Part shown: positions 8,457 to 58,145 of the stretch, piece by piece | How positions within the stretch are numbered: the stretch's first letter is position 1 | How the letters are laid out: each line of letters opens with the position of its first letter | DNA from: an uncultured Gammaproteobacteria bacterium | GTDB lineage: Bacteria; Patescibacteriota; Microgenomatia; CAZETR01 | Length of the DNA: 64,000 bases | Direction of reading: 5' to 3' | NCBI GenBank assembly: GCA_964514545.1 | Contig: CAZETR010000011.1 | Coordinates: forward strand, 26,294 to 90,293 | Notes under the pieces: model-generated | The model's input: the letters and a program-made list of their open reading frames with translations, nothing else | What the model was told of the DNA's origin: nothing | Database searches by the model: none | Made by a program: the position numbers and the translations under genes

Positions 8457-8519
8457 AGACCCTTATTATAAGCATCATTGTGCGATTATCAATCAGAATA
8501 TTTTAATCCATCAACCTAC

Positions 8520-8996
8520 TCATTTCTTTACCCAATTACTTAGAAGGTCTGAGCTTGATCTTATCTTCCCACCACCAACTCCGAATATGATTTGGCACCT
8601 TACCTTTATACACGCGTTCCTTTCGAGAATAGGTATTTTTTTGATTGAATCTATGTCTCCACCATTGGCCCAGATGTTTGGCTTTAGGTGGAGAATTGCA
8701 TTAACTACATCCCCACCTCCCATAACAAATACGTCGTCCACGCATCGCAACTCTTTAATTATGGCAACCCTATCTTCTAATGGCATAAATACTTTTCCTT
8801 TCTTTTTAATTGTGTATTCATCCCCGTCGATGACCACTACTAGCTTGTCTCCAAGCGCCTTTGCGGCCTGAAAGGAAAGTAGGTGACCTAAATGAAGTGG
8901 GTCAAAACTTCCACTTACCATAACAACTTTTTCTTTTCTTAATTCTCTTGAATTTCTTTGTAGCAATCTTTTCTTGTCTTTTTTCCGATTTAGCAT
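8520..8996 (-). CDS. Cytidylyltransferase-like nucleotidyltransferase (HxGH family, TagD/RfaE-domain-II-like)
   Basis: MVSGSFDPLHLGHL (HxGH) plus a Rossmann-like layout. The basic N-terminal 25 aa may lie upstream of the true start at 8921. Confidence 0.65.
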   Translation of the reverse strand: MLNRKKDKKRLLQRNSRELRKEKVVMVSGSFDPLHLGHLLSFQAAKALGDKLVVVIDGDEYTIKKKGKVFMPLEDRVAIIKELRCVDDVFVMGGGDVVNAILHLKPNIWANGGDIDSIKKIPILERNACIKVRCQIIFGVGGGKIRSSSDLLSNWVKK

Positions 8997-15584: not shown

Positions 15585-16412
15585 CTATGATAGATAAAAT
15601 GTTTCATTGCGAACATCTTGGTTGCATCTCCACTGACCCTCCGGGTTTCTGTAAAGCAACTGTTCTCCATCTGGAGGCCGAGGAACTCTCCGGTCTATCG
15701 AAACGAGGTTTCTATCTTCATTAAAGCCCAGATAACCCAAGGCAATAGTTTTACCCGCAGAATCTTCCAGTAGGTATTCAAGTAACCATCTTTCTCCGGG
15801 AAAAAGGTAGCACATTCTGTACCAGCCATCAGGATCGTTGTCGAAAAGTAGATTTTTCATCTTCAGTTCTTCAACTAGTGCTGGATCTACTCTTCTGCTA
15901 TCGAGAGCTTGATTAACCGCTTTGGTTAGTAGGGGAAGATTTTTGTTAAAACGGAATTTTTTTAGTGACTGTCGTAGGCGATCGGTTTGGTCAGAGGTAA
16001 ATATAAATTGAAAGTGAGGGTTTCCTGGCAATTTCGCCGCGTCTCTTTCAGACCACGTAGCAGGGGAAAAATGACTCGTAGTAGGTTTAGTTTTAGTTCG
16101 AATCTCTTCTCTTTTAAGTTGGAGGGCTGTGCGAAGCTTGCCCTGCTTTAATTTAGCAATAAAGGTGTTGTCGCATACCAATTCGTCAGTTAGAACTCCC
16201 CAAACTGTTGATTCATCCATCCTGGGGAATATATCTTCGAGATCAATTTTTCCGACACCTGGTTCTGAGGGAAAGAATTTCGTGTAAGTAACGTCCTCCC
16301 CCTCGATGTAAATAATCAGACATTTACCATTCTTTCTTGGAGAGAATTTGGCTCCAAACATAATCCCACTTCGGAGATATGGTTTTTGTTCAGACTCTTT
16401 TGATACTCTCAT
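15585..16412 (-). CDS. Hypothetical protein
   Basis: 275-aa soluble ORF with no recognisable motif. Confidence 0.4.
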   Translation of the reverse strand: MRVSKESEQKPYLRSGIMFGAKFSPRKNGKCLIIYIEGEDVTYTKFFPSEPGVGKIDLEDIFPRMDESTVWGVLTDELVCDNTFIAKLKQGKLRTALQLKREEIRTKTKPTTSHFSPATWSERDAAKLPGNPHFQFIFTSDQTDRLRQSLKKFRFNKNLPLLTKAVNQALDSRRVDPALVEELKMKNLLFDNDPDGWYRMCYLFPGERWLLEYLLEDSAGKTIALGYLGFNEDRNLVSIDRRVPRPPDGEQLLYRNPEGQWRCNQDVRNETFYLS

Positions 16413-16457: not shown

Positions 16458-17420
16458 TTAGCCGGTTTTGAAATCTTTGTAACCTGTAAAACTGGACTGG
16501 GCTAAAGGAAGAAGCATTGCGTGAACCTTTTCAGAACAGGATCCGAGAACCACAGACGTGGAGTTTGCGGTAACTTCTTCTCCTTCGTGTGTGGTTGCAA
16601 CGCCTCCGGCCCATTTGGTCATAACTGCACCATTTTCCACATCCCACCTGCCTCCAATGGCATACGTGATCCAGGCATGTCCGTGCAATATTGCAAGCTT
16701 TTGGTTTTGAACATTACTTGCAGTGCCAATTAGGCTAATGTTCATCCCGGTGATTTGAGGGAGGTTTTTAATAAATTCTGCCACTCTTTGTGATGTCCCA
16801 TTTCTAATCGTCGAATCTATATAAACCAATATTCTTCCCCGTGTTGGTTCTGGAATCCTGATTCGAACTGGGTCTATACGTTCATTTAGACTCAGGTCAC
16901 TTTCAAGCGAGAATCTATAGACAAGATCTTTCTGAGCTAAAACTAATCCCTCTTCTCTAAGAAAGGGGCTTGCAATTGCTACCGCATGCGGCTCATTGTT
17001 TAATCTCGCCATGACGGTTGTAGCTGCAAAGGGGAGTCCGAACGCGTATTCTGTGGTTCCATCCAGAGGGTCACCAATAAATTCTAATTCGCTCTCCTGC
17101 CCACTGATTCCTCCCTCTTCAAAAATTAGTTTGCATCCGGACGGGTTGGATCTAGCGAGGAAACGTTTCATTAGTCCTTCAGACGCCCAATCGGCACGGG
17201 TGACAAAGGTATTGTCTCCCTGCTTTACTTTCAATTGTAGGTTGTGCCCTAGCGGGGAATTGGGATGATATTTGACTAGTCGGGTAGCTCCGATAATTGA
17301 AGCCAGTGCGCAGTTTACGGCAATTTTATCGAACCCTGTGGCTGTTATTCTTTCTCTCGCTATAGATATCTTTTCTTCAGTCGAACTTGAGTCTCTTGCG
17401 AGGCTTTCTCGATAAATCAT
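16458..17420 (-). CDS. Inositol monophosphatase / CysQ-family phosphatase
   Basis: DPLDGTTEYAFGLP (DPxDGT) and WDxxAG-type motifs of the IMPase/FBPase superfamily. Confidence 0.8.
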   Translation of the reverse strand: MIYRESLARDSSSTEEKISIARERITATGFDKIAVNCALASIIGATRLVKYHPNSPLGHNLQLKVKQGDNTFVTRADWASEGLMKRFLARSNPSGCKLIFEEGGISGQESELEFIGDPLDGTTEYAFGLPFAATTVMARLNNEPHAVAIASPFLREEGLVLAQKDLVYRFSLESDLSLNERIDPVRIRIPEPTRGRILVYIDSTIRNGTSQRVAEFIKNLPQITGMNISLIGTASNVQNQKLAILHGHAWITYAIGGRWDVENGAVMTKWAGGVATTHEGEEVTANSTSVVLGSCSEKVHAMLLPLAQSSFTGYKDFKTG

Positions 17421-18151
17421 TTTCTATTTTGTGACAAATAATCTGTCGTGTAGGCTAGTGTGTCTGGGTTTCCCGTGTCGAGCCAGGGATCAAAAAGTGT
17501 GGAAGTGAATGGATATCCTCTTTTGATCATCTCGTTTATAACGTGGGTGTCGGTGAGTTTTTGGTCGTTGGGATCCTTTTGGTAAAGATAATTCAGGGAG
17601 TCCCAAAATACTTTGTAATCCTTAACCGCTGTGAGGCCGATATGGACCTGGTGATAATCATTTGCTCCAACATCCTGTACTTTTATAAGCTTTCCATCTT
17701 CTATCCAATGGGTGCGGAAGTACTTGGTAACAACTGATTTATCCAAGTCGCGCATCGGATTTCCACCGGTCCAATTAGTGTCCGGACGGGGAATAGGCTG
17801 GGTAACAATTGTGTCGCAGGCATGGAAGATAAAGGGGCACTGAAGAAGTTCCGCGGCCTTTGACATGGAATATGCGCAGCTGGTACCGGGACCTACAAAT
17901 TTGTCTACCCATGCATATTCAACTTTGATGTCCGAATGATTTTTCTTTAGGTACTCTCTAACCTGGTCACCCAGGAATCCAAGTGTAATTACAAACGAAA
18001 CTCCTTTGGGGTAGGAATCAAAAATATAGGAGAGAATGGATTTGCCGTTTATTTCTACTAGGGCTTTGTTCTTTTCGCGGGTCAGATCACCAAGGCGGGA
18101 CCCAATTCCGGAGGTCGTCACGAGAACTTTATAGGGGTTCGGCCAGCGCAT
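17417..18151 (-). CDS. Sugar-phosphate nucleotidyltransferase (NTP_transferase family)
   Basis: KVLVTTSGIGSRLGDLT (GxGxRL) Rossmann-like nucleotidyltransferase signature. Confidence 0.7.
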   Translation of the reverse strand: MRWPNPYKVLVTTSGIGSRLGDLTREKNKALVEINGKSILSYIFDSYPKGVSFVITLGFLGDQVREYLKKNHSDIKVEYAWVDKFVGPGTSCAYSMSKAAELLQCPFIFHACDTIVTQPIPRPDTNWTGGNPMRDLDKSVVTKYFRTHWIEDGKLIKVQDVGANDYHQVHIGLTAVKDYKVFWDSLNYLYQKDPNDQKLTDTHVINEMIKRGYPFTSTLFDPWLDTGNPDTLAYTTDYLSQNRK

Positions 18152-18166
18152 TAGCTGACGGTTCTA

Positions 18167-19162
18167 TCACGAAAGGTTGTGGATGTAAAGATCAAAGACC
18201 CTGTGCATTTCATTCTGAATTGCGTTTGCAAAATCTTCGTGGTGGGAAATTTTGTCAAATAATCTCTTGTATTCGTCAGTGTTGAAGTTGTAGTGGCCTG
18301 AGATTGTGCTACACAAAAGCTTGTTATTGGCATCATTTTTATTGAGCCACTTCACCCATTTTTTGCTCCGGTATGAGAGCTCGAGAAATTCATTTGCGTC
18401 CAGACCGTACTGGGTGGCCTTATAGAGTGAGAGTTGCGTTTGCAGAATGCCGAATTGTGGCGCAACGTTCATTGCCGAAATCAAACCCCTTCTCTGGCTA
18501 ATTTCTTCCTGACTAAGATAATCTGCGTTGTGCTCTTTCAGGGGTAGATCGTATTTGTCTGCAAGAAGCTTCACCTTTTTTAGATAATCTTCGTGGAAAA
18601 CTCCTTCTTGGTTAATTTCTTTTATAACCGAGCCTGTCTGTGTCACGAAAAAATGCGGTTTGAAAAAAGAGGTAAAGAATTGCATCTGTTGTTCGACTTT
18701 ACCAATGTTCTCAACTTCAATTCCATTATTTTCATCGGTTCCGATCTCAATAAAAACATCGGGGGATTTTTTCTTGATATATTCGATTGCTTTTTGAGAC
18801 TCGTCGAGTATTTCATCATATGTTCCATTGTGGAAACAAAAATCGATATGAATCAAGTCAAAACCTACCTCTATATCTTCATCTATCGTTCTGTATGTAT
18901 CTTTAATGTCGTAGACGCTATTGTGGCCTGGTCCACAATGGTCCCGACAGAGTAGGACTCTGGCATCTGGATATTTTTTATCTAGTCTAGAAATGAAATT
19001 TCCGTAATCCTTGGTATTAAACACGTAGCCTCTGTCAAAATCAACCTGGTTCTTCGAGCAGATGAGCATTAGAGGAACATTGTTCTCTTGCGAGTAAGAG
19101 AAGACCGCTTCAATTATAATATTGCTCATTGGCCCTACCCCTAACGTACTAATCACTTCCAT
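18167..19162 (-). CDS. GatZ/KbaZ-like TIM-barrel protein (tagatose-bisphosphate aldolase non-catalytic subunit family), tentative
   Basis: IIEAVFSY...LMLICSKNQVDF...LCRDHCGPG parallels GatZ LVIEAAL...LIEATSNQVNQ...LGGDHLGPN. Confidence 0.4.
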   Translation of the reverse strand: MEVISTLGVGPMSNIIIEAVFSYSQENNVPLMLICSKNQVDFDRGYVFNTKDYGNFISRLDKKYPDARVLLCRDHCGPGHNSVYDIKDTYRTIDEDIEVGFDLIHIDFCFHNGTYDEILDESQKAIEYIKKKSPDVFIEIGTDENNGIEVENIGKVEQQMQFFTSFFKPHFFVTQTGSVIKEINQEGVFHEDYLKKVKLLADKYDLPLKEHNADYLSQEEISQRRGLISAMNVAPQFGILQTQLSLYKATQYGLDANEFLELSYRSKKWVKWLNKNDANNKLLCSTISGHYNFNTDEYKRLFDKISHHEDFANAIQNEMHRVFDLYIHNLS

Positions 19163-19671
19163 ATCCCGACCCCCTTTTTGAATGTCATCTGTTGGATATT
19201 AAGCCTACTATAAAATTTCGCCATGAGGTGAAAACAGGCCTCTGCAACGGCTCCTTCTCCTCCCCTTCTCTTGGTTACAAAATCAGCTTGAGTTTTGGTC
19301 TGAGGAAAAGCATTTGCGGGGGCAATTGAGTAAGCCACTGCCTTAAATACTAAGCCATCAAAGATTCCGTCGCCCATATAACAAGTTGACTTGATATCGT
19401 AATTCTCTTTTATCCATGAGACTCTATCAAAGGTGCTGACTAATGTTAGTGGAAAATGCATATCGTCGACTATTCTTTTCTTGGAGATTTCAAATCCTCT
19501 TTTGTCTCCTGAGATCATGTGAATGTTTATTCTATCTTTAATAAGGTTTAGCGCGTCGCTGTCGTCAGGGCCGAAAATTTTATATGCTTTCCCTTTGACA
19601 GAATATAAAAATTGGCCGGTCGTGAGAACTCCGTCCACATCGATAATGAAATTCTTTATTTTTTTCTTCAT
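19153..19671 (-). CDS. HAD-IIIA phosphatase, KdsC-like (3-deoxy-sugar 8/9-phosphate phosphatase family)
   Basis: IIDVDGVLTTG and GDGIFDG motifs of KdsC/NANP-type phosphatases. Confidence 0.8.
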   Translation of the reverse strand: MKKKIKNFIIDVDGVLTTGQFLYSVKGKAYKIFGPDDSDALNLIKDRINIHMISGDKRGFEISKKRIVDDMHFPLTLVSTFDRVSWIKENYDIKSTCYMGDGIFDGLVFKAVAYSIAPANAFPQTKTQADFVTKRRGGEGAVAEACFHLMAKFYSRLNIQQMTFKKGVGIWK

Positions 19672-20498
19672 TGTCCTAATAAGCGCAACATTGCACTTTT
19701 CATTATTTCAAGAGGCGCTTCCTGATCAGTGTAAAGTTCAAATTGTTTGACGGCTTGTAAAAGACACATTACCGTACCCGGAATTACGACTTTATTTCTC
19801 TTTCGGGCTAGTTTTATGAGTAGGGTATCAACTGGGCTAATTACAACCTCGTATATTATTTTGAAATTTTCAACTGCTGGTTCATCCACTGGAGTTTCAC
19901 TAAAATCAGGAGTCATGCCGATGCTGGTGGCATTTATTAGCACATCAGCTGGATATTGGTTTCTGTTATTCCAAGGAATAAAAGAATACCCTCTTTTAAG
20001 AGCGAGGTCGTGAGCCTTTTGATAGGTTCGATTGCAGATGCTAACGTCAGTGACACCCAGATGTTTAAGGGCAGCAGTTATTGCAAGGGAGACACCGCCA
20101 GCTCCCAAAACTAATACTTTTTTCCTTTCGATACTCCCTATTCCCTTCAGAGCCTCTGTTGCACCGAAAAAGTCTGTGTTGTAACCAATTAACATTCCGT
20201 TTTCATTGACGATAGTGTTCATGGCTCCAACTTCAATGGCGCTGGTGTCTAGCCTATCCATGTAGTTCAATGCGTCTACCTTAAACGGCATAGACACTCC
20301 GCATCCTCTTATTCCAAGTGCCCTTATACCGTGAATAGCATCTCTCAAATTATTCCCAGTCGGCTCGAGGCCTCGAGCAAGGTAGATCGCGTTTATGCCC
20401 AATGACTCAAACCCGGCATTATGTACAGTTGTCCCGAAATCGCTCGGTCTTTGGGCAAGTGACATGCAAATAATGGTTTCTTTGGTAATGCTAGACAT
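19668..20498 (-). CDS. Shikimate/quinate dehydrogenase (AroE)-family oxidoreductase
   Basis: GAMNTIVNENGMLIGYNTDFFG and VLVLGAGGVSLAI Rossmann segments are typical of AroE. Confidence 0.8.
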   Translation of the reverse strand: MSSITKETIICMSLAQRPSDFGTTVHNAGFESLGINAIYLARGLEPTGNNLRDAIHGIRALGIRGCGVSMPFKVDALNYMDRLDTSAIEVGAMNTIVNENGMLIGYNTDFFGATEALKGIGSIERKKVLVLGAGGVSLAITAALKHLGVTDVSICNRTYQKAHDLALKRGYSFIPWNNRNQYPADVLINATSIGMTPDFSETPVDEPAVENFKIIYEVVISPVDTLLIKLARKRNKVVIPGTVMCLLQAVKQFELYTDQEAPLEIMKSAMLRLLGQ

Positions 20499-21900
20499 AT
20501 AAAGATTTGGTTAGCATTAATTTTCCTAGATGATGGAGAAAAAAATTGAATGGTTCATGGTGTAAGGGAGACATGTTGATAAATATAATTCCTGTTAGTA
20601 ACTGGATCTTCGTTTTATCATATTTTCTGGCTTTGATAAATTCCCGAAATTCATCCCTTGCCTGATGTAAATACGGCGGGGGCTGAAGACTAATTTCTAC
20701 GCTACTGTCAGCCTGGGAAAAAGCAAATTTATTTTTCTTGATCGAACTATAAGGAATAATTAACCCTCCATAGAGTTTGGCCAGATCGTAATAAATATCA
20801 CCGTACTCTACTAAACCGGCAAAACTTTCCCGCCAGTCCAGAAGAATAAACTCAGAACTTCCATTTGGAACAAATAATACGTTGTCAAATTGTAGATCGC
20901 CATGAAACCTGACTGGTGTACCATGACAGAGATAATCCCAATCGACCAATTCGATTAATTCATTTAGGGTAGGTGTTTGTTCTCCGTTAACTTGAGTTTG
21001 AATATCTTTGTGCGAAACTGTATTCCAGTAATTATGTATTCGTTCGTTAGTTTTATTTTTATAGAATTTAACGCAGGCTTGGAAAAAATCTACCGTTTGA
21101 CCATCGGCAAGAAGTGGTTTTTGTGTATCCCAGAGGTGAGATGAGCACCACCACAAAAATCGATTTGTCAGTCCAGGAGATAAACATTCATACATCGTTT
21201 TGCCTGGTACTTTTTTATATGAATAATAATTAGCACCCACTCTGTCCAAGCTTGGAGTTAACCCGTTTAAGAATTTGATTCTTTCAACTCTTGCTTTTAC
21301 GATCTTTTCGTCCTGAAAATATTTGACAACCATGTTTTCCGGAAAGTAAATCGCCTCTTCGGGTTTGGAGAAATCGAACTCTTGATCGTTGTCATTTTTA
21401 AGGTAATTTCTGGCTTGAAGCAACTTATCTGGCTCAGATAAATTTAGATAATCGATAGCGATATCTTCATAATTTGCTTTTACTGTATCTAGTGATTTTT
21501 TTTGTTTTATTGCGTTCCAAAATGACAGATGGTCGAATACGTGAATAATTGGTTCAGATGTCCAATTGCGGTCTTCGTTGAGTGAACTGGTGTTTAGAAA
21601 ATAATTTCCAAAGACAATAAAAAACGGTGTTGTGAGCTGGTTTCTTAGTTTTAGAAGCTCTTGGGAGGTGCCGAAAATATTACCAAGATCGGTAGATGCC
21701 CTAATTACTATGATTTTTTTGTCTGGATGGGCACATAGCAAATAATCCTCCAAAAGTTTCGCATCTTTGCCGGTTATAACAATTATCTCCTCCAGCTGGG
21801 AAAAGATCGATATTTGATGAGAAATTAGAGGAATCCTTCCAAGCGAGGTTAACGATCTGACGGTATTTGAAGGAGAGATGAAGACTGCTTTTTTTGTCAC
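20491..21900 (-). CDS. Fusion: N-terminal MobA-like nucleotidyltransferase domain plus C-terminal APH/choline-kinase-like phosphotransferase
   Basis: C-terminal HGDLQFDNVL catalytic loop and LLDWRE. The N-terminal ~110 aa is a small nucleotidyltransferase-like fold. Architecture resembles LicA/LicC-type kinase plus cytidylyltransferase pairs. Confidence 0.6.
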   Translation of the reverse strand: MTKKAVFISPSNTVRSLTSLGRIPLISHQISIFSQLEEIIVITGKDAKLLEDYLLCAHPDKKIIVIRASTDLGNIFGTSQELLKLRNQLTTPFFIVFGNYFLNTSSLNEDRNWTSEPIIHVFDHLSFWNAIKQKKSLDTVKANYEDIAIDYLNLSEPDKLLQARNYLKNDNDQEFDFSKPEEAIYFPENMVVKYFQDEKIVKARVERIKFLNGLTPSLDRVGANYYSYKKVPGKTMYECLSPGLTNRFLWWCSSHLWDTQKPLLADGQTVDFFQACVKFYKNKTNERIHNYWNTVSHKDIQTQVNGEQTPTLNELIELVDWDYLCHGTPVRFHGDLQFDNVLFVPNGSSEFILLDWRESFAGLVEYGDIYYDLAKLYGGLIIPYSSIKKNKFAFSQADSSVEISLQPPPYLHQARDEFREFIKARKYDKTKIQLLTGIIFINMSPLHHEPFNFFLHHLGKLMLTKSLYV

Positions 21901-21934
21901 AGATTAAGGTGAATTACGGGCAGTCTGAAAAAAC

Positions 21935-22435
21935 TTATATTTTTCGATGTTCCTGTTCGATTCGCCCGTTCGGGCGATCAGTATCGTCCTGAATTCGAAT
22001 AACGTCATCAAGTTGTGGCGAGGAAGCTTCGATTAAAATTAGATCTGTTAAAGCTTCTATCCTGTGTACGCCCGGGGGATTAACGTAGATTATGTGGCCC
22101 GGTCCGAGTTCTTGCGATGACACAATCTCACCAGTATCTTTATCTTCGTAATATAATATTGCTTTCCCGCTAAGTATAAAATTGTGTTCTCGCTTTTCTT
22201 TGTGATATTGGAGGCTTGTCTTTGTACCATTTTTAAGGCCTATTATTTTGAATGCGTACGAACCCTCACTGCCATCGGCAATCCAGATTTCAAAACCCCA
22301 CGGTTTTATTACTAATTTTGCTTGGGCTAAATTAAAAATTTGAAGTTCTTCGGGAAGGTTATCGGGATAAAGTTCATGTCTTCCTGTTCGTGTAAAGTTA
22401 ACAATCTGTTCAAACATTTTAATTTCTGCGCTCAT
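21935..22435 (-). CDS. Cupin-2 protein resembling the type II phosphomannose isomerase (ManC C-terminal) domain
   Basis: KPWGFEIWIA...FKII...GTKTSLQYHKEKREHNFILSGKA parallels RPWG...VKRI...LSLQMHHHRAEHW. Confidence 0.6.
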   Translation of the reverse strand: MSAEIKMFEQIVNFTRTGRHELYPDNLPEELQIFNLAQAKLVIKPWGFEIWIADGSEGSYAFKIIGLKNGTKTSLQYHKEKREHNFILSGKAILYYEDKDTGEIVSSQELGPGHIIYVNPPGVHRIEALTDLILIEASSPQLDDVIRIQDDTDRPNGRIEQEHRKI

Positions 22436-22501: not shown

Positions 22502-23371
22502 TCATTTGCCGAGATTCCTTACGGGAGTTGTGTGTTTGTATATACCACGACTAACTAGTGAGTATCTTGGGACACCTTGGTCATCATCGATGGAGGCAAA
22601 TAATTCTCTTGTTGGGAGCGAAAGGCGGAGTGGTAATATGTCAATCCGGCTGGGATCTTTTTCTAATTCAAACGGGGCCTCGTGCGTGTAGCGGCTAAGT
22701 TTATAGCCTAATAGGCTGTTTAGGAATTGGAATGGACTTTGGGGGTTTACTTTGAACCCTATTCTATTTATAAGAGCTGAGAGCGTGAATATTGGTCGAG
22801 ATAGCGTGGGTGACCATTTGTTTATATCCTTTTTCATCATTGCGATTAGGAACTCCTTTCTAAATATTCCCAAAAGGGAAATTAGGTAATAAGAATGTCC
22901 AGATTTTCTAATAGCAACCCAGTCTTTTATTCTCAGTACAGCGGTATCTGAGTACGTCTGGTGATTAAATTTCACCCCACTGAATGACTTTTTGAATCTG
23001 CCGAAGTGCCACCAAGATATGGGGAGATAATCGCTTCTACTTTTCTGCATTTCTTGGACTAGGTTTTTATATATCGTTTGCGGAGCTAAGTTAAGGTGGT
23101 CCTCGTTCCAAATAAGAATGTAGTTATGTTTGGCTTTTTGGATCATTTCCAAGGCGTTATTAATCCAACCGTTAGCGTCATTTAGAAGCTGGAAGAGTAT
23201 CATTCTGGGACCGAGCTGTTTTTTTAAATATTCTATTGCCTGATCTCTATATGGACCTCGGACATTTATTAACCAGTTGTCACTGACTTTGTCGAATGAC
23301 TTAAATGAATCTTTTAAGTGTTGAAGTTTATCTGGACTGTTTATTTTTAGATTTCCAAGAATTGTTAGCAT
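22502..23371 (-). CDS. Hypothetical protein (possibly GT-A-like)
   Basis: 289-aa soluble ORF immediately downstream of wzt. Contains NEDH; no secure family. Confidence 0.4.
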   Translation of the reverse strand: MLTILGNLKINSPDKLQHLKDSFKSFDKVSDNWLINVRGPYRDQAIEYLKKQLGPRMILFQLLNDANGWINNALEMIQKAKHNYILIWNEDHLNLAPQTIYKNLVQEMQKSRSDYLPISWWHFGRFKKSFSGVKFNHQTYSDTAVLRIKDWVAIRKSGHSYYLISLLGIFRKEFLIAMMKKDINKWSPTLSRPIFTLSALINRIGFKVNPQSPFQFLNSLLGYKLSRYTHEAPFELEKDPSRIDILPLRLSLPTRELFASIDDDQGVPRYSLVSRGIYKHTTPVRNLGK

Positions 23372-23374
23372 TAC

Positions 23375-24607
23375 TTAACTTATTTGATAATTAAGGAGAA
23401 GGCTGCCTTCTGATTGCAGTGGCAATTGTCCGGTTTTGTAGTAATCACCAAACTCTACACTGAAGTTGCCTGCTTTTTGCACCCAGTCCAGGATGTCGCC
23501 ATTTTGGTCTACTGTGATGAGGGTAAATTGATATCTTCCAGGGGTTAATGGAAGATTGCTGATTTTAACCTTTATCACGCCGTCGGATGTACTTATATGT
23601 TGGTTAAAGATTTTATTGCTTATAAAGGCAATTCGGTTTTGCGAAACAAAATCGTCTATGCTAAGGGCAAAATCGATTTTTTTGACAGCCGGGTCAATTA
23701 TATTAAACTCTATCCAGAAGTAGGCGTCCTCCCCGCTTCTAAAGAAATTGACACTCTTTCCTAGGCTGTCTTTGAAAAACACGCGGGTAATTCTTAGCCT
23801 ACCACTTCCCTGTCTGTCTTTTCGATCTTTAAGAGAAATCTTACTTGTTTCGCCCGACATTTTCAGATACTCGGCAATTACTTTGCGTGAATCACCCGAT
23901 TTGACTAATTTTCCTTTGGAGAGGAGCAGTGATCTGGGACAGAGTGATTGAATCGCGCTCATGTTGTGGCTTACAAAAATTACTGTTCTTCCGCTTTTGG
24001 CAACGTCCTGCATCTTGCCGATACTTTTTTTCTGGAACCTGGCATCTCCTACTGCCAATACTTCGTCAACCAGTAGAATTTCCGATTCTAAAAATGCGGC
24101 GATTGAAAATGCTAGGCGAGTATACATGCCTGAGGAATAGTGTTTCACGGGTGTATCCAAAAATTTTTGGATCTCGGAAAAATTCACTATATCGTTGTAT
24201 TTCTTTTTAATTTCCGTTCTACTCATTCCGAGGATTGATCCATTTAGGAAAATATTTTCTTTTCCGGTTAATTCCGGATGAAAACCGGTTCCCACCTCCA
24301 GTAAACTGGCTACTCGCCCGCGAAGATTAATTTGTCCCTGTGTTGGGGGTGTTATCTGGCTGAGTACTTTTAAGAGTGTACTTTTGCCTGCTCCGTTTCC
24401 GCCGATTACTCCTAGCACCTCTCCTTGACCTACGTTGAAAGATACATTTTTCAAGGCCCAAAGGGATATGGCGGGAGCCTTTAGAATTGGCTGAATTTGT
24501 GGAAATTTGATAATTTTAGCAATCGAATCCCGAAGTGCGTGATATGGCTGACGCTCCCCCAGGGCATATTCTTTGGATAAATTTTTGACTTCTATGATTG
24601 GCTCCAT
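23375..24607 (-). CDS. wzt: ABC transporter ATP-binding protein Wzt/TagH-type with C-terminal carbohydrate-binding extension
   Basis: Walker A GGNGAGKST, signature YSSGMYTRLAF, Walker B ILLVDE. A ~160-aa β-rich C-terminal extension resembles Wzt_C. Confidence 0.9.
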   Translation of the reverse strand: MEPIIEVKNLSKEYALGERQPYHALRDSIAKIIKFPQIQPILKAPAISLWALKNVSFNVGQGEVLGVIGGNGAGKSTLLKVLSQITPPTQGQINLRGRVASLLEVGTGFHPELTGKENIFLNGSILGMSRTEIKKKYNDIVNFSEIQKFLDTPVKHYSSGMYTRLAFSIAAFLESEILLVDEVLAVGDARFQKKSIGKMQDVAKSGRTVIFVSHNMSAIQSLCPRSLLLSKGKLVKSGDSRKVIAEYLKMSGETSKISLKDRKDRQGSGRLRITRVFFKDSLGKSVNFFRSGEDAYFWIEFNIIDPAVKKIDFALSIDDFVSQNRIAFISNKIFNQHISTSDGVIKVKISNLPLTPGRYQFTLITVDQNGDILDWVQKAGNFSVEFGDYYKTGQLPLQSEGSLLLNYQIS

Positions 24608-24613
24608 TTTGGG

Positions 24614-25429
24614 TCAGATGATGTCTGCTATATATTTTTCTGTGTGTTTGAAGTAAGCAAGTCCTGAGGCAAAAATTATGACAGCTGAAGTTATGGATGT
24701 AATAATAACCGGCCAATTAAGAATCACTGTCCCGGACAATGCCTCTCTGGATGAATCAATGACTGCGGTCATGGGATTTAGCGCCATAATTAATTTATTT
24801 GTGGAGCTGACAATACTTAAGGGATATATCACGGGAGTGACAAATAGCAGAATTTGAATAAAGAATGGAAGGATATACCTAACGTCGCGAAATCGAACGT
24901 TTAGAGCGCTGGTAAATAAGCTAAGTCCGGCAGAGGTTACGGTGGTTAGCAGAATTGCAAGTGGAATAATCAATATCGCGTAGATAGATGGCGTGAATTT
25001 TAGTACCAGGGAATAGAGTATTAATATAATAAGATTAATGGTGAAGTCTACAAAGCTGACAAGTATGGATGATAGCGGGAGAAAAATCTTGGGAAAATAG
25101 ACTTTTTTGATCAGATTTTCATTTTCAATCAAAGAATTACTGGCATGGCTGAGTACCCCCGAAAAAAAATTCCAGAAAACTAATCCCCCTAGAACAAAAA
25201 GCGAGTATGGCAATTTACCTGAGGAAATGCGAGCTAATTTTCCGAAGAAAACAGTGAATATAATCATGGTTGTAACGGGTTGAAAAACTGTCCATGCAAT
25301 CCCCAGGAAAGTTTGCTTATATCTAACTTTTATATCTCTCCAGGCGAAAATAAAAAATAGTTCCCGAAACCGCCACAGTTCTTTCCAGTCAATATTCCAC
25401 CAATTATTGCGGGGAGTAATTGTAATCAT
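24614..25429 (-). CDS. wzm: ABC-2 type polysaccharide export permease Wzm
   Basis: REL...RDIKVRYKQTFLGIAWTVFQP ABC-2 signature, six predicted TM helices, ATGA-coupled to wzt. Confidence 0.85.
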   Translation of the reverse strand: MITITPRNNWWNIDWKELWRFRELFFIFAWRDIKVRYKQTFLGIAWTVFQPVTTMIIFTVFFGKLARISSGKLPYSLFVLGGLVFWNFFSGVLSHASNSLIENENLIKKVYFPKIFLPLSSILVSFVDFTINLIILILYSLVLKFTPSIYAILIIPLAILLTTVTSAGLSLFTSALNVRFRDVRYILPFFIQILLFVTPVIYPLSIVSSTNKLIMALNPMTAVIDSSREALSGTVILNWPVIITSITSAVIIFASGLAYFKHTEKYIADII

Positions 25430-27471
25430 GTGCCCTGGGGGTTAAGCAAGTAGAGATTTTTAATTATCATGCTTGAGTTGCATATTAACAAATTTCTTAT
25501 TTCGAGGCGATAAAGAGAGTAGTCTTCTTTTCGACTGATGTTTAGGTTAATTGGTTTTCTGCATTTTTCCCTATCGGCAAAATATAGCATTTTGTTTTCT
25601 GCAACGAGATGTTTTAGTTCCTCCATTGGGGTGGCCTCGTAAAAGTCAAGAGGTAGAAGTTCGCAATTTACATTAAATATGTGTGTCCACCCATCTTCGG
25701 CTTTTCTAATTACATCTTCATCAGCCAGGAATAATTCCTTTTTTCCTAAAGTGCCGCACCACTTGTAAATATCCCCGGTCACTCTGTGTCTGTCTTTTAA
25801 CCAATCGTAGATATCTGTTTTGCCTAAGGCGTAGCGGATCTCTTGGGGGGAAATATATGATTTCAGTGAGTAGATTCTTTTAACATTGAAGGCAAAAAAA
25901 TACCCGGCGAATAAAAATAAAACCACTGAATATACTTTGTTTAGTTTCTTTAGACTTCTAGATTTAGAATGAAGCGATAAGGGAATAGTTAGTAGTAGAG
26001 CCAGAACTATCTGCAGAAAGTAAAAGTATCTATCAACATATCCGGTAAAATATTTGATGACAACGAAAGAGAGAGTTGAGCATGAGAGCAAAAACAGAGC
26101 TATTTTGATGGTAGGTAATCGCCGGCTCTTGAGAATTAATAATAATGCAGGAATTAAGAGTAATAGATAGATCGAGTGTCCCTTGGTTATCCCTATTGCC
26201 AGTTGAGGTAAATAAGAAAAGGAAATAGGAATGGTAGCTCCAAAAATGCTATTTGTAACCGAACAGAGTGCCTGATCGCATTTAAATACATTTCCCAGAA
26301 ATGGAAAAATTGGGTTTCCGGTAAGTGCCAAGTTTTTGAGGTACCAAAATCCTCCAAAAAAGACGAGTAGGGAAATAAGCTTAAGAATACTGCTTGGCTT
26401 TAGAATTTTAGAAAACCTCGTCACAAATTTCGCACTTTCTTCTTTGCCTGCGGGTCCTGTCGCGAGTTGTCCTTCCCGCCAGTGCTCGCGGGATTTACCC
26501 GTCTGCGCGCTGTCGGGCGTGCTCGCTGACGCTGTGCCTTGCAGTGCAAGCCTTCCTCTCGCACCACCCGCGTTATTTGTAGACGCAAAACTTATTGCTG
26601 TGTAGGCCAACCAAACCACGAAAATGGTATAGGATGTGGCAAAAGGAACCAGAGATGGATATTTGCTGCCAATAGACATGGCACTAAACACCATACTTGC
26701 GTAAAGGTAATTGGCGGTTTTGGTCAGAATAAACTCAATCATTGTAATCATGCCAAGTACTGTTAGGGCGGCCGTTGAGTAGTCTATATATCCGGAAGTA
26801 GCAACTATTAATAAATCGTGATTTAGAAACAAAAAAATCCAAAGAAACGCAAAAGCTGATAGGTGTGATGTGCGTGATTTAAACCATGCGTAAATGGCGC
26901 TGACGGACGAATAAAAAATCGCAAAATGAAGAAGGCGCGTGGGAGAGTAAGTTTTGGTAAGTGAAAATGGAATCGCAAAAAAAAGGTCTAGTTCTTTCGG
27001 AAGGCTCGGGTGGACGCTTTCATAATCTATTTTCCAGGTTGAGTTGTATGTTTCGTATGGCGACAAGAAGTGATACTGCATCTCGTCCGTGAGATACGGG
27101 GGAAGAGAGCTCTTGACGAGCAAGATCGGAAGAAATATTAGTATGGGCATGATTGATAGCAGATTTGCTTTTATAAAAACCGTGAGTGAGCGCCACTCGC
27201 GGTTTTTTATATAACTTGGTAGAGCAATTATTAGTAACGGAACCAGTGACCAAAGCACATAGTTGGGTCTTATGGGAATAAGAAACCTAAGCCAGAACCA
27301 CTCAAAAACGATTGCCCCTACTCCATAGATCCAGATTGCCGGACGGATAAAACTGGGGGACTTAATGAATTTCTTGTCTATAAATACGCCTAATACGTCA
27401 AAGTATACAAAGAGTCCAAGGGAGATTAACAGAAGGAGGGGCGAGAGGGGCCTGAAGTATTCAGATAACAT
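25426..27471 (-). CDS. Large polytopic membrane protein, PPY-DEM-YH family paralog 1 (putative GT-C-like), with GC-rich in-frame insertion
   Basis: Conserved loop motif SSLPPYLTDEMQYHF, plus LTKTYSPTRLL and SGYIDYST, all shared with 27474..29396 and 33138..34928. Has a soluble C-terminal domain. A ~60-aa low-complexity insert (STNNAGGARGRLALQGTASASTPDSAQTGKSREHW...) is absent from paralog 2. Confidence 0.6.
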   Translation of the reverse strand: MLSEYFRPLSPLLLLISLGLFVYFDVLGVFIDKKFIKSPSFIRPAIWIYGVGAIVFEWFWLRFLIPIRPNYVLWSLVPLLIIALPSYIKNREWRSLTVFIKANLLSIMPILIFLPILLVKSSLPPYLTDEMQYHFLSPYETYNSTWKIDYESVHPSLPKELDLFFAIPFSLTKTYSPTRLLHFAIFYSSVSAIYAWFKSRTSHLSAFAFLWIFLFLNHDLLIVATSGYIDYSTAALTVLGMITMIEFILTKTANYLYASMVFSAMSIGSKYPSLVPFATSYTIFVVWLAYTAISFASTNNAGGARGRLALQGTASASTPDSAQTGKSREHWREGQLATGPAGKEESAKFVTRFSKILKPSSILKLISLLVFFGGFWYLKNLALTGNPIFPFLGNVFKCDQALCSVTNSIFGATIPISFSYLPQLAIGITKGHSIYLLLLIPALLLILKSRRLPTIKIALFLLSCSTLSFVVIKYFTGYVDRYFYFLQIVLALLLTIPLSLHSKSRSLKKLNKVYSVVLFLFAGYFFAFNVKRIYSLKSYISPQEIRYALGKTDIYDWLKDRHRVTGDIYKWCGTLGKKELFLADEDVIRKAEDGWTHIFNVNCELLPLDFYEATPMEELKHLVAENKMLYFADREKCRKPINLNISRKEDYSLYRLEIRNLLICNSSMIIKNLYLLNPQGT
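26445..26572. repeat. GC-rich hairpin-rich island inserted in-frame in a membrane-protein gene
   Basis: About 130 nt of much higher GC than its surroundings. Contains stems CGCGAG/CTCGCG, TCCCGC/GCGGGA and CTTGCA/TGCAAG. Corresponds to the extra loop insert relative to the paralog. Confidence 0.45.
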
Positions 27472-56450: not shown

Positions 56451-56453
56451 GAT

Positions 56454-58139: not shown

Positions 58140-58145
58140 GGCGAG

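What the first reader, a model, noticed from the sequence alone, without database searches (positions are those of the whole stretch)
16458..22435. Sub-cluster suggesting synthesis of an unusual activated sugar or polyol phosphate
The consecutive minus-strand genes here form a combination not matching a textbook pathway. They are an IMPase-family phosphatase, a GxGxR nucleotidyltransferase, a GatZ/KbaZ-like TIM-barrel protein, a KdsC-like HAD phosphatase and an AroE-fold dehydrogenase. They are followed by a nucleotidyltransferase–APH/choline-kinase-like fusion and a PMI-type cupin. An HxGH cytidylyltransferase sits nearby at 8520. This could encode a CDP/NDP-activated ketose, alditol-phosphate or phospho-substituent (teichoic-acid-like or phosphocholine-like decoration) added to the exported polymer.
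Basis: inference. Interest (0 to 1): 0.55.

Follow-up and report, generated by a model that had tools for sequence, protein, structure and literature searches.

The report
Uncharacterised cassette making an activated rare sugar
These seven genes are one conserved, unnamed biosynthetic cassette, found in dozens of uncultured bacterial and archaeal lineages, that most likely builds a nucleotide-activated rare sugar from a ketose phosphate for a cell-surface polysaccharide; which sugar it makes is still unknown.

Summary
The gene calls are right. All seven minus-strand genes (16458-22435) exist, overlap or abut, and carry intact catalytic motifs. The exception is the N-terminal nucleotidyltransferase half of the "fusion", which is a vestige.

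The combination is not chance. In 61 complete loci from candidate phyla radiation (CPR) bacteria, DPANN archaea, SAR86, Pelagibacteraceae and other uncultured groups, the same core recurs: GatZ-like barrel, PMI-type cupin, KdsC-like phosphatase and nucleotidyltransferase-kinase. At least nine different gene fusions tie the parts together.

- **Reductase:** the AroE-like gene is interchangeable with a classical short-chain dehydrogenase (25 loci versus 22, never both). It lacks the shikimate carboxylate-binding residues.
- **Transferase:** the adjacent unannotated 289-aa gene (22502-23371) has a GT-A glycosyltransferase fold. Its relatives are fused to the cupin or to an HxlB-type isomerase.
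- **Variant cassette:** one version swaps GatZ-like plus cupin for Rpe-like plus HxlB-like.

Best reading: ketose-phosphate epimerase, then isomerase, then phosphatase and anomeric kinase, then nucleotidyltransferase, giving an NDP-sugar that a dedicated glycosyltransferase uses. This follows the logic of the heptose pathway with unrelated enzymes.

A polyol-phosphate or phosphocholine-like decoration is not favoured. The product, the reductase step and the IMPase/second-nucleotidyltransferase pair remain unresolved. No literature was found.

The parts
16458..17420 (-). IMPase-family phosphatase (320 aa), an accessory member of the cassette
   Evidence: PF00459 at 67.5 bits. The DPLDGT and WD motifs can be read in the translation. 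IMPase genes occur in 12 of 61 core loci and one is fused to a nucleotidyltransferase in L041 6721-8265. It overlaps the next gene by 4 bp.
17417..18151 (-). Stand-alone sugar-1-phosphate-type nucleotidyltransferase (244 aa, GIGSR); probably the only working nucleotidyltransferase of the cassette in this genome
   Evidence: PF00483 at 26.4 bits. NCBIfam hits are to archaeal GlmU, AglF, RmlA and HddC types. It is 32-46% identical over its full length to the nucleotidyltransferase domains of the kinase fusions elsewhere.
18167..19162 (-). GatZ-like class-II-aldolase-fold TIM barrel (331 aa); proposed metal-dependent ketose-phosphate epimerase acting by retro-aldol/aldol chemistry
   Evidence: AF2 model pLDDT 88.9. 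Best PDB fold match is GatZ 2fiq (TM 0.80, 15% identity), followed by class II FBA. D74/H75, D143 and H211 align with GatZ D87/H88, E171 and H257 (PMC11907403). These residues are invariant in alignment A1. The family has 319 cluster representatives at E<=1e-30.
19153..19671 (-). KdsC-like HAD phosphatase (172 aa)
   Evidence: TIGR01670 at 67.5 bits, below cut-off. Best PDB sequence matches are KdsC proteins. D11xD13, D101 and D105 are invariant in 58 cassette homologues. Relatives are fused to the GatZ-like protein (P0165, P0176) or to a nucleotidyltransferase (L025, L033).
19668..20498 (-). AroE-fold (SdhL-type) NAD(P)-dependent oxidoreductase (276 aa); a ketoreductase step, not shikimate synthesis
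   Evidence: Best PDB match is HI0607 SdhL, 1npy, at 195 bits. The sugar-acting 5-ketofructose reductase 7cok belongs to the same family. The catalytic and hydroxyl-binding positions K65, N86, T101, D102 and Q244 are invariant, T61 is a conservative Ser throughout, and carboxylate-binding S14, S16 and Y215 are replaced by R/K, G and I/V. It is mutually exclusive with a classical SDR across 61 loci (25/22/0/14, p=2e-7).
20491..21900 (-). APH-fold sugar kinase with a vestigial N-terminal nucleotidyltransferase domain (469 aa)
   Evidence: HGDLQFDN and LLDWR are invariant. The N-domain has lost the GxGxR loop and two further segments compared with about 528-aa relatives that carry PF00483/PF12804. 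More than 1,285 homologues were found.
21935..22435 (-). PMI type II-like cupin (166 aa); proposed sugar-phosphate ketose/aldose isomerase
   Evidence: PF01050 at 31.6 bits. Q76, H78, E83, H124, E136, D144, R147 and D150 are invariant in 63 homologues. Relatives are fused to the GatZ-like protein (P0281), to a GT2 (L080) and to the 289-aa protein (P0247).
22502..23371 (-).
   Evidence: No Pfam or NCBIfam hit. AF2 model pLDDT 92.2. The top-ranked Foldseek PDB matches are almost all GT-A glycosyltransferases (TarP, RmlT, TarS, CgT, SpsA), E about 5e-6, TM 0.40-0.47. W88xE90-D91-H92 is invariant. It is present in 14 of 61 core loci. Homologues are fused to an HxlB-type SIS domain (TIGR03127 at 190.8 bits, cut-off 160) or to the cupin.
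23375..24607 (-). Wzt ABC-transporter ATPase with a C-terminal carbohydrate-binding domain (context)
   Evidence: PF00005 at 79.7 bits and PF14524 Wzt_C at 46.6 bits. Wzt lies directly upstream of the 289-aa gene here and in L001, L002, L043 and L092.
24614..25429 (-). Wzm ABC-2 permease (context)
   Evidence: PF01061 at 79.8 bits.

Best explanation
The region is one self-contained cassette that makes a nucleotide-activated (NDP-) rare sugar and passes it to a dedicated GT-A glycosyltransferase. It sits inside a polysaccharide cluster exported by a Wzm/Wzt ABC transporter.

Proposed flow; every step is inferred and none has been shown biochemically:
1. The GatZ-like barrel epimerises a ketose phosphate by metal-dependent retro-aldol/aldol chemistry. 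The simplest case is fructose-6-P to tagatose-6-P.
2. The PMI-type cupin converts the ketose phosphate into the corresponding aldose phosphate.
3. The KdsC-like phosphatase and the APH-fold kinase together move the phosphate from the terminal carbon to the anomeric carbon. The order is unknown. Kinase first would mirror HddA/GmhB in heptose synthesis; phosphatase first would mirror MupP/AmgK in MurNAc recycling.
4. The stand-alone nucleotidyltransferase (17417-18151) makes the NDP-sugar. It replaces the dead N-domain of the kinase protein.
5. The 289-aa GT-A protein transfers the sugar to the polymer.

The AroE-like enzyme performs a keto-reduction on a sugar intermediate; other lineages use an ordinary short-chain dehydrogenase for it. 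Its position in the pathway is not resolved. The IMPase is an accessory phosphatase that works with a nucleotidyltransferase, and its role is also unresolved. If the starting ketose is fructose-6-P, the product would be a talo- or galacto-configured hexose. This last point is a low-confidence inference.
For: - **Synteny:** the core GatZ-like + cupin + kinase occurs in 61 loci, 52 of them with the HAD. These come from CPR bacteria, DPANN archaea, SAR86, Pelagibacteraceae, Bdellovibrionales, Omnitrophota and others.
- **Fusions linking every part:** NT~KIN~ALD (P0323), ALD~NT~KIN (P0404), ALD~CUP (P0281), HAD~ALD (P0165, P0176), HAD~NT (L025, L033), IMP~NT (L041), CUP~GT2 (L080), U289~CUP (P0247) and U289~HxlB (P0244).
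- **GatZ-like enzyme:** fold match to GatZ at TM 0.80. It keeps the GatZ base and metal ligands. GatZ is reported to epimerise F6P to T6P (PMC11907403). It has HNADY where class II aldolases have the phosphate-binding HGxSG loop, as GatZ has HSTDY.
- **Variant cassette (L090, L092):** keeps U289, NT~KIN and HAD but swaps GatZ-like + cupin for an Rpe-like ketose-phosphate epimerase + an HxlB-type isomerase. This is another epimerase + isomerase pair.
- **Nucleotidyltransferases:** the domains score as sugar-1-phosphate types.
- **Kinase:** catalytic motifs are invariant.
- **U289:** GT-A fold.
- **Reductase:** AroE-like and SDR are mutually exclusive. The AroE-like protein lacks the carboxylate-binding residues. 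An SDH-family enzyme is known to reduce a keto-sugar (7cok).
Against: - No enzyme has been assayed and the sugar is not identified.
- The reductase has no necessary place in the simple five-step scheme. It is absent from 14 of 61 loci and from the variant cassette.
- The IMPase/second-nucleotidyltransferase pair is unexplained.
- The best PDB sequence match of the fusion-type nucleotidyltransferase domain is LicC, a phosphocholine cytidylyltransferase (46 bits). A non-glycosidic phospho-alcohol substrate is therefore not excluded by sequence.
- U289's fold matches are modest (TM 0.40-0.47), and the GT-A fold is shared with nucleotidyltransferases (IspDF at rank 38).
- GatZ's own epimerase mechanism rests on docking, not on structures with ligand.
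Confidence: 0.55

Rival explanations
1. One reading: the cassette makes a CDP-activated alditol or other polyol phosphate. Ketose-P is made by the GatZ-like enzyme, dephosphorylated, reduced to an alditol by the AroE-like enzyme or SDR, re-phosphorylated by a choline-kinase-like kinase, and activated by a LicC-like cytidylyltransferase. The result is added as a teichoic-acid-like phospho-substituent.
For: - A reductase is present in 47 of 61 loci.
- The best PDB sequence hit of the nucleotidyltransferase domain is LicC, 1jyk.
- The kinase is of the APH/choline-kinase fold.
- A phosphatase-then-kinase order would fit moving the phosphate to another hydroxyl.
Against: - It gives no role to the invariant PMI-type cupin, or to the HxlB-type isomerase that replaces it.
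- The reductase is missing in 14 loci and in the variant cassette.
- No LicD-, TagF-, Stealth- or CDP-alcohol-type transferase co-travels with the cassette. The co-travelling transferase has a GT-A fold.
- Most nucleotidyltransferase hits are sugar-1-phosphate enzymes.
- The kinase lacks the choline-kinase-specific motif; it has LDWR instead of IDxEY (sequence reading plus my own knowledge of the motif).
Confidence: 0.15
2. The GatZ-like protein is a true C-C bond-forming, DHAP-dependent aldolase. It would build a ketose-1-phosphate from DHAP plus an aldehyde such as lactaldehyde, methylglyoxal or a pentose phosphate. The product would then be reduced, dephosphorylated, isomerised by the cupin, phosphorylated at C1 and activated. 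That amounts to reversed fucose/rhamnose catabolism joined to an Fkp-like salvage step, yielding an NDP-6-deoxyhexose or a higher-carbon sugar.
For: - It gives every enzyme, including the reductase, a place in a linear route.
- The fold is that of a class II aldolase.
- The SDH-family 5-ketofructose reductase is a precedent for reducing a 5-keto ketose.
- An IMPase/FBPase-type enzyme could remove a 1-phosphate.
- Fkp-type nucleotidyltransferase-kinase fusions exist in salvage pathways (my own knowledge).
Against: - The DHAP phosphate-binding HGxSG loop is replaced by HNADY, as in GatZ.
- Only two of the three aldolase His ligands are kept.
- PF01116 scores below its cut-off (22.9 against 25.5).
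- In the variant cassette the slot is filled by an Rpe-like epimerase, which forms no C-C bond.
Confidence: 0.12
3. The cassette makes a nucleotide-activated cyclitol. The barrel would act as an aldol cyclase, the AroE-like enzyme would work on the carbocycle, and the IMPase and an inositol-phosphate-type cytidylyltransferase would complete the route.
For: - AroE-family enzymes normally act on six-membered carbocycles.
- An IMPase is present in this window.
- There are weak hits of the nucleotidyltransferase domain to inositol-1-P cytidylyltransferase.
Against: - The IMPase is present in only 12 of 61 loci.
- The AroE-like gene is replaceable by an ordinary SDR and is sometimes absent.
- The kinase plus phosphatase would be superfluous if a cyclitol phosphate were made directly.
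- The variant cassette uses Rpe-like + HxlB-like, which are open-chain sugar-phosphate enzymes.
Confidence: 0.05
4. The genes are unrelated housekeeping genes (shikimate pathway, Kdo synthesis, inositol or gluconeogenic phosphatase, mannose metabolism) that merely lie together.
For: Each gene taken alone resembles a housekeeping family.
Against: - Every curated equivalog cut-off is missed: AroE 239 against 306 and 198.7 against 200.2, KdsC 67.5 against 107, IMPase 40 against 332.
- Synteny is conserved and fusions recur across bacteria and archaea.
- No aro or kds partner genes were seen in the parts of the window that were scanned; the 38-64 kb stretch was not scanned against family libraries.
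- The AroE-like protein lacks the shikimate carboxylate-binding residues.
Confidence: 0.02

Closest known systems
NDP-D-glycero-D-manno-heptose pathways: GmhA isomerase, HddA or HldE kinase, GmhB HAD phosphatase, HddC or HldE nucleotidyltransferase
   Same: The proposed logic is the same: ketose-phosphate isomerase, anomeric kinase, terminal-phosphate HAD phosphatase and sugar-1-P nucleotidyltransferase. A kinase-nucleotidyltransferase fusion also occurs in both, as in HldE.
   Different: Every enzyme belongs to a different family: cupin or HxlB-type SIS instead of GmhA, APH-fold instead of GHMP or PfkB kinase, KdsC-type instead of GmhB-type HAD. There is an extra ketose-phosphate epimerase and usually a reductase. 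None of the heptose equivalog models is met.
E. coli GatZ/KbaZ and Agrobacterium tagatose-6-phosphate 4-epimerase (PF08013)
   Same: Same fold (TM 0.80 to 2fiq). The same Asp-His base/ligand pair, the acidic ligand in the IGT(E/D) motif and the second His in the (A/E)H(S/N)xDY motif are kept.
   Different: It is 331 aa rather than about 420 aa and only 15% identical. The Pfam match covers only the N-terminal 100 residues and barely reaches the cut-off. GatZ K279 and E44 are N232 and I34 here. It sits in a biosynthetic glycan cluster, not a catabolic galactitol or GalNAc operon.
MurNAc recycling bypass MupP / AmgK / MurU, and Bacteroides Fkp (fucokinase/GDP-fucose pyrophosphorylase)
   Same: A HAD phosphatase frees the sugar, an APH-fold anomeric kinase re-phosphorylates it, and a GxGxR nucleotidyltransferase activates it. 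Fkp shows the same nucleotidyltransferase-kinase fusion idea. This comparison rests on my own knowledge.
   Different: Those are salvage routes for existing sugars. Here the sugar phosphate seems to be made de novo by an epimerase/isomerase pair encoded in the same cassette. There is no significant sequence match to AmgK or NahK structures.
SdhL (H. influenzae HI0607, PDB 1npy) and 5-ketofructose reductase (PDB 7cok), both in the shikimate dehydrogenase family
   Same: SdhL is the best match (195 bits), with the same N-terminal SLxxRPSxFGTT signature. The catalytic Lys/Asp pair is conserved. 7cok shows that the family can reduce keto-sugars.
   Different: SdhL's physiological substrate is unknown. 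The cassette enzyme sits in a glycan pathway and is functionally replaceable by a FabG-like SDR.
Bifunctional PMI-GMP (ManC/AlgA type II phosphomannose isomerase with GDP-mannose pyrophosphorylase)
   Same: A PMI type II cupin is paired with a GxGxR nucleotidyltransferase (PF01050 hit, TIGR01479 C-terminal region).
   Different: The cupin is a separate small protein. No phosphomannomutase is present; a phosphatase plus a kinase stand in its place. An extra epimerase acts upstream.
Chain-terminating caps read by Wzt carbohydrate-binding domains (E. coli O9a WbdD; terminal Kdo in K. pneumoniae O12)
   Same: Wzt here carries a Wzt_C domain. The GT-A gene and cassette directly follow wzm-wzt here and in four other lineages (concept from PMC9445017 and PMC3482155).
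   Different: Nothing shows that the cassette sugar is terminal. In 14 other loci the cassette lies with a Wzx-type flippase instead.

Membership tests
GatZ/KbaZ-like family (PF08013) | Class-II-aldolase-type TIM barrel closest to GatZ | tested here: met
   Foldseek top hits are 2fiq (TMq 0.80) and 3txv (0.75), ahead of class II FBAs at 0.48-0.62.
GatZ/KbaZ-like family (PF08013) | Asp base plus His/Glu/His metal site (GatZ D87, H88, E171, H257) | tested here: met
   D74, H75, D143 (a conservative E to D change) and H211 align with them and are invariant in 16 homologues (residue roles from PMC11907403).
GatZ/KbaZ-like family (PF08013) | Pfam gathering score and full-length match (about 420 aa) | tested here: inconclusive
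   26.9 bits against a cut-off of 26.7. Only residues 12-112 match, and the protein is 331 aa. hhalign against GatZ gives 85.8% probability over 97 columns.
GatZ/KbaZ-like family (PF08013) | Fructose-6-P/tagatose-6-P 4-epimerase activity | not testable with these tools
   Needs an enzyme assay.
Class II fructose/tagatose-bisphosphate aldolase (PF01116) | Three-histidine Zn site and HGxSG phosphate-binding loop | tested here: not met
   Only the first and third His equivalents are present. The loop reads HNADY. PF01116 scores 22.9 against a cut-off of 25.5, and hhalign against GatY gives 0.7% probability.
Shikimate dehydrogenase AroE | Three-domain SDH architecture with the catalytic Lys/Asp pair | tested here: met
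   PF08501, PF01488 and PF18317 all match. The K65, D102, N86 and Q244 equivalents are invariant in 25 cassette homologues.
Shikimate dehydrogenase AroE | Shikimate carboxylate-binding residues (E. coli S14, S16, Y215) | tested here: not met
   They are replaced by R/K (20 of 25), G (20 of 25) and I/V (23 of 25). The residue roles come from my own knowledge of AroE structures.
Shikimate dehydrogenase AroE | Curated equivalog score and aro-gene context | tested here: not met
   NF009202 scores 239 against 306 and TIGR00507 scores 198.7 against 200.2. No aro genes were seen among the window genes scanned (1.7-38 kb). The gene is always inside the cassette in 25 loci.
KdsC (Kdo-8-phosphate phosphatase) | C0-type HAD with DxD nucleophile motif and GDxxxD | tested here: met
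   D11xD13, D101 and D105 are invariant. The best PDB matches are KdsC proteins.
KdsC (Kdo-8-phosphate phosphatase) | Curated score and KdsA/KdsB partners | tested here: not met
   TIGR01670 scores 67.5 against 106.95 and NF007019 scores 61 against 208. No KdsA or KdsB was seen in the cassette loci.
Sugar-1-phosphate nucleotidyltransferase (PF00483), gene 17417-18151 | GxGxR loop and Pfam score | tested here: met
   GIGSR is present, and PF00483 scores 26.4 against 21.2.
Sugar-1-phosphate nucleotidyltransferase (PF00483), N-domain of 20491-21900 | GxGxR loop and sugar-binding core | tested here: not met
   The loop is deleted, two further segments are deleted, and there is no Pfam or NCBIfam hit.
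APH / choline-kinase-type kinases (PF01636) | Brenner motif HxDxxxxN and downstream Asp | tested here: met
   H333-G-D335-L-Q-F-D-N340 and D355 are invariant in 60 homologues.
APH / choline-kinase-type kinases (PF01636) | Choline/ethanolamine-kinase-specific motif (IDxEY...N) and Pfam score | tested here: not met
   The sequence reads LLDWRES. PF01636 scores 19.9 against 23.2. The motif definition is from my own knowledge.
PMI type II cupin (PF01050) | Pfam score and the Q/H...E...H metal motif | tested here: met
   31.6 bits against 23.6. Q76, H78, E83 and H124 are invariant in 63 homologues.
IMPase family (PF00459) | Pfam score and DPxDGT / WD motifs | tested here: met
   67.5 bits against 27. 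DPLDGT and RWDVENG can be read in the translation. The substrate was not tested.
GT-A glycosyltransferases (for the 289-aa protein) | GT-A Rossmann-like fold with an acidic DxD-type motif | tested here: inconclusive
   The top-ranked fold hits are nearly all GT-A enzymes (E about 5e-6), but TM is only 0.40-0.47. E90-D91-H92 is invariant at the expected place. No sequence family matches.

The most novel reading that the evidence does not exclude
This is a previously undescribed, widespread route to a nucleotide sugar, built entirely from enzymes recruited from other families: a GatZ-type epimerase, a PMI-type cupin, an AroE-type or SDR reductase, a KdsC-type phosphatase, an APH-type anomeric kinase and a new GT-A family. 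It would supply a rare sugar, possibly not yet recorded in prokaryotic glycans, to the surface polymers of CPR bacteria and DPANN archaea. In ABC-transporter clusters such as this one, that sugar may be the chain-terminating cap read by the Wzt carbohydrate-binding domain.
Probability: 0.35. Interest if true: 0.75.

Novelty: new variant of a known kind. Interest (0 to 1): 0.62.

Why it matters
Nucleotide-sugar pathways define which sugars a cell can put on its surface. This cassette is carried by many uncultured lineages (CPR bacteria, DPANN archaea, marine SAR86 and SAR11 relatives) whose cell-surface chemistry is almost unknown, and its genes are annotated only as hypothetical or by generic domain names.

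If the proposed route holds, four things follow:
- It gives a function to a GatZ-like family (319 cluster representatives at E<=1e-30), to a nucleotidyltransferase-kinase family with more than 1,285 homologues, and to a new GT-A family.
- It shows a shikimate-dehydrogenase-fold enzyme working in glycan synthesis, interchangeable with an SDR.
- It offers a phosphatase + kinase bypass of a phosphomutase.
- It provides enzymes for making rare NDP-sugars.

It also warns against annotating these AroE-, KdsC- and IMPase-like genes as shikimate, Kdo or inositol metabolism when reconstructing the metabolism of reduced genomes.

Tried and rejected
- **Source of the window.** An exact look-up of the AroE-like protein found nothing. 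The closest named relatives are Saccharibacteria and Andersenbacteria genomes at 62-63% identity. A CPR origin is therefore only inferred.
- **Literature.** Three searches for the cassette or plausible products found nothing relevant. The SdhL search gave only an incidental mention next to a sorbose operon.
- **Sequence searches against solved structures.** They gave nothing useful for the kinase domain and only marginal hits for the cupin.
- **SDR replacement.** NCBIfam typing shows only generic FabG / glucose-1-dehydrogenase similarity and gives no clue to the substrate.
- **Readings considered and set aside:**
  - A Kdo- or KDN-like ulosonic acid route. There is no PEP-condensing synthase and no CMP-type synthetase, and a kinase would be unnecessary.
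  - A role for the HxGH nucleotidyltransferase at 8520. It is not syntenic anywhere else.
  - The 275-aa gene at 15585-16412 as a cassette member. It was found only in the same organism (L008).
- **One product for both cassette types.** I tried to derive a single product reachable by both the main and the variant cassette, for example tagatose-6-P via HxlB + Rpe acting on 3-hexulose-6-P. This is chemically attractive, but it leaves the cupin without a counterpart, so I left it as an idea only.

Full report
**1.

The minus strand between 16458 and 22435 carries seven consecutive ORFs that overlap by 4-10 bp or are separated by at most 66 bp. They continue upstream without a break into a 289-aa ORF (22502-23371), wzt (23375-24607) and wzm (24614-25429).

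- IMPase family: PF00459, 67.5 bits.
- GxGxR nucleotidyltransferase: PF00483, 26.4 bits, with GIGSR.
- GatZ/KbaZ-like barrel: PF08013, 26.9 bits against a cut-off of 26.7.
- KdsC-subfamily HAD: 67.5 bits, below the curated cut-off.
- Shikimate-dehydrogenase fold: all three Pfam domains.
- APH-type kinase.
- PMI-type cupin: PF01050, 31.6 bits.

None of the genes reaches a curated equivalog score for a housekeeping enzyme. The surrounding 38 kb encodes glycosyltransferases, methyltransferases, acetyltransferases, epimerase/dehydratases and the ABC exporter. This is a large surface-polysaccharide cluster.

One detail needs correcting. The 469-aa "nucleotidyltransferase-kinase fusion" has lost its nucleotidyltransferase. 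Against about 528-aa relatives that carry PF00483/PF12804, the window protein and its two closest relatives lack the LAAGxGSRMG loop through an 11-residue deletion. They also lack the GPGTGPG motif and two further segments. The kinase motifs HGDLQFDN and LLDWR are invariant.

The stand-alone nucleotidyltransferase at 17417-18151 is 32-46% identical over its whole length to the nucleotidyltransferase domains of intact fusions elsewhere. It most likely supplies the lost activity.

**2. It is one conserved cassette**

Close relatives of the kinase protein lie in metagenome contigs with the same order: wzt, 289-aa gene, cupin, kinase, AroE-like, HAD, GatZ-like, nucleotidyltransferase (L001-L003).

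The GatZ-like protein is the best-conserved member, at 50-60% identity across phyla. A scan of one genome per species returned 80 loci. All are from uncultured organisms:
- many CPR/Patescibacteria lineages;
- DPANN archaea (Woese-, Pace-, Nano- and Iainarchaeota);
- SAR86, Pelagibacteraceae, Bdellovibrionales, Omnitrophota, Spirochaetota and a few others.

Domain-level annotation of every neighbourhood gives 61 loci with the core GatZ-like + cupin + kinase. Of these, 52 have the HAD, 14 have the 289-aa gene and 12 have an IMPase.

The family has 319 cluster representatives at E<=1e-30 among 1.84 billion.

Independent gene fusions join the parts in almost every combination:
- NT~KIN~ALD (P0323)
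- ALD~NT~KIN (P0404)
- ALD~CUP (P0281)
- HAD~ALD (P0165, P0176)
- HAD~NT (L025, L033)
- IMPase~NT (L041)
- CUP~GT2 (L080)
- U289~CUP (P0247)
- U289~HxlB-type SIS (P0244 and others)

**3. What the parts look like**

*GatZ-like barrel.* The AF2 model (pLDDT 88.9) matches E. coli GatZ best (2fiq, TM 0.80, 15% identity). Class II aldolases follow at lower scores.

GatZ and KbaZ have recently been reported to be fructose-6-P/tagatose-6-P C4-epimerases. The proposed base is Asp87 and the proposed Zn ligands are His88, Glu171 and His257 (PMC11907403). Aligned with GatZ taken from MG1655, the window protein has D74-H75, D143 and H211 at these positions. All are invariant in the family.

Where class II aldolases bind the DHAP phosphate through HGxSG, this family has HNADY and GatZ has HSTDY. 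That argues for a ketose monophosphate substrate and against a DHAP-dependent aldolase.

*AroE-like enzyme.* The best solved relative is H. influenzae HI0607 (SdhL, 195 bits). The 5-ketofructose reductase 7cok, which acts on a sugar, belongs to the same family.

In 25 cassette homologues aligned with E. coli AroE, the positions K65, N86, T101, D102 and Q244 are invariant. T61 is a conservative Ser throughout. The residues that hold the shikimate carboxylate are replaced: S14 by R/K, S16 by G and Y215 by I/V (residue roles from my own knowledge).

Across the 61 core loci, the AroE-like gene (25 loci) and a classical FabG-like short-chain dehydrogenase (22 loci) never co-occur. Fourteen loci have neither (Fisher p = 2e-7). 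The two are alternative solutions for one redox step that most cassettes need.

*Cupin, HAD and IMPase.*
- The cupin keeps the PMI type II metal motif: Q76, H78, E83 and H124 are invariant in 63 homologues.
- The HAD keeps the DxD and GDxxxD motifs, and its nearest structures are KdsC proteins.
- The IMPase has the family motifs.

*The 289-aa gene.* It matches no Pfam or NCBIfam model. Its AF2 model (pLDDT 92.2) hits almost only GT-A glycosyltransferases at the top of the PDB list: TarP, RmlT, TarS, CgT and SpsA, at E about 5e-6 and TM 0.40-0.47. An invariant W-x-E-D-H sits where GT-A enzymes carry DxD.

**4. A variant cassette sharpens the interpretation**

Some homologues of the 289-aa protein are fused to a SIS domain. 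That domain scores above the curated cut-off for 6-phospho-3-hexuloisomerase (TIGR03127, 190.8 against 160).

Their loci (L090, L092) read: wzm, wzt, U289~HxlB, an Rpe-family protein (205-212 bits against an rpe cut-off of 212.6, also close to allulose-6-P 3-epimerase), a 526-aa NT~KIN and a KdsC-like HAD. They have no GatZ-like gene, no cupin and no reductase.

So the activation and transfer half (HAD, kinase, nucleotidyltransferase, GT-A) is constant. The front half is exchangeable between two pairs of the same functional type: a ketose-phosphate epimerase plus a sugar-phosphate isomerase. The isomerase of either kind can be fused to the GT-A protein.

**5. Most likely mechanism (inferred, none of it assayed)**

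1. A ketose phosphate is epimerised by the GatZ-like enzyme.
2. The cupin isomerises it to an aldose phosphate.
3. The HAD phosphatase and the APH-fold kinase move the phosphate from the terminal to the anomeric position.
4. The nucleotidyltransferase makes the NDP-sugar.
5. The GT-A protein transfers it.

This is the logic of NDP-heptose synthesis (GmhA, HddA/HldE, GmhB, HddC) or of the MupP/AmgK/MurU bypass, carried out by unrelated families.

With fructose-6-P as the start, the product would be talose or galactose in configuration. I hold that only weakly.

Because wzt here encodes a Wzt_C carbohydrate-binding domain, and the GT-A gene follows wzt directly here and in four other lineages, the sugar could be a chain-terminating cap of the kind such domains recognise (PMC9445017, PMC3482155). 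However, 14 other loci pair the cassette with a Wzx-type flippase, so this is speculative.

**6. What remains unexplained**

- The reductase has no necessary place in the five-step scheme.
- The IMPase plus second nucleotidyltransferase pair, which is fused in L041, has no assigned role.
- The order of the phosphatase and the kinase is unknown.
- The sugar is not identified.

**7. Rival readings**

It gives no role to the invariant isomerase, lacks a suitable transferase, and fails the choline-kinase-specific motif.
- *DHAP-aldolase route to 6-deoxy or higher sugars.* It uses every enzyme neatly. The missing phosphate loop and the Rpe-like replacement contradict it.
- *Cyclitol route.* It is unparsimonious.
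- *Chance housekeeping neighbours.* This is excluded.

**8. Novelty**

No paper describing this cassette was found. Database names are "hypothetical protein" or generic domain names.

It is a new variant of a known kind of system, a nucleotide-sugar pathway, with unusual enzyme recruitment and a wide distribution in poorly known lineages.

Overall confidence that it is an NDP-sugar pathway feeding a glycosyltransferase is about 0.55. Confidence in the specific chemistry is much lower.

Noticed in passing
window 53134-61483 (-) and 61630-63183 (+): Five tandem paralogous polytopic membrane proteins of 538-574 aa, 27-31% identical to each other, with 6-7 crude TM-like segments each. A sixth, distant copy lies on the other strand. 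One representative (54795-56450) gave no PDB sequence match.
   Followed up: partly
window 25426-27471, 27474-29396, 33138-34928 (-): Three paralogous large polytopic membrane proteins with no Pfam or PDB match. The first two are 42% identical; the third is 27-32% identical to them. They sit between wzm and the rest of the glycan cluster.
   Followed up: partly
window 6887-8996 (-): A separate sub-module: a LegC-family aminotransferase (352.8 bits, below cut-off), a WbuC-like small cupin, and the HxGH nucleotidyltransferase. The last resembles RfaE domain II (70.6 bits) more than TagD (48.5 bits). It is not syntenic with the cassette in other loci.
   Followed up: partly
window 4631-5308 and 5272-5910 (-): Two adjacent MetW-like methyltransferase paralogues (167 and 160 bits against TIGR02081, below its cut-off of 189.5) inside the polysaccharide cluster.
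   Followed up: no
L090 9001-13209; L092 9001-13151: A variant cassette: the GT-A-like protein fused to an HxlB-type 6-phospho-3-hexuloisomerase, followed by an Rpe-like epimerase, NT~KIN and a KdsC-like HAD. It lies directly after wzm-wzt in L092 and after a GT4 glycosyltransferase in L090.
   Followed up: yes
L041 6721-8265; L025 6334-7503; L052 11384-13279; L080 8449-9669: Unusual fusions in DPANN, CPR and Omnitrophota relatives: IMPase~nucleotidyltransferase, HAD~nucleotidyltransferase, nucleotidyltransferase~methyltransferase and cupin~GT2.
   Followed up: partly
L007 6245-7933; L081 13368-14900, and 6 further loci: A B12-binding radical SAM enzyme recurs near the cassette in 8 loci, possibly a C- or O-methylase of the glycan.
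   Followed up: no
window 15585-16412 (-): A 275-aa ORF directly downstream of the IMPase has no family match. It has no homologue next to the cassette in any other locus except the same organism's contig L008.
   Followed up: partly
window 1-64000: No tRNA genes in the 64 kb. The scanned part (1.7-38 kb) is dominated by glycan-synthesis genes, and GC content is an even 39-45% across the window.
   Followed up: no
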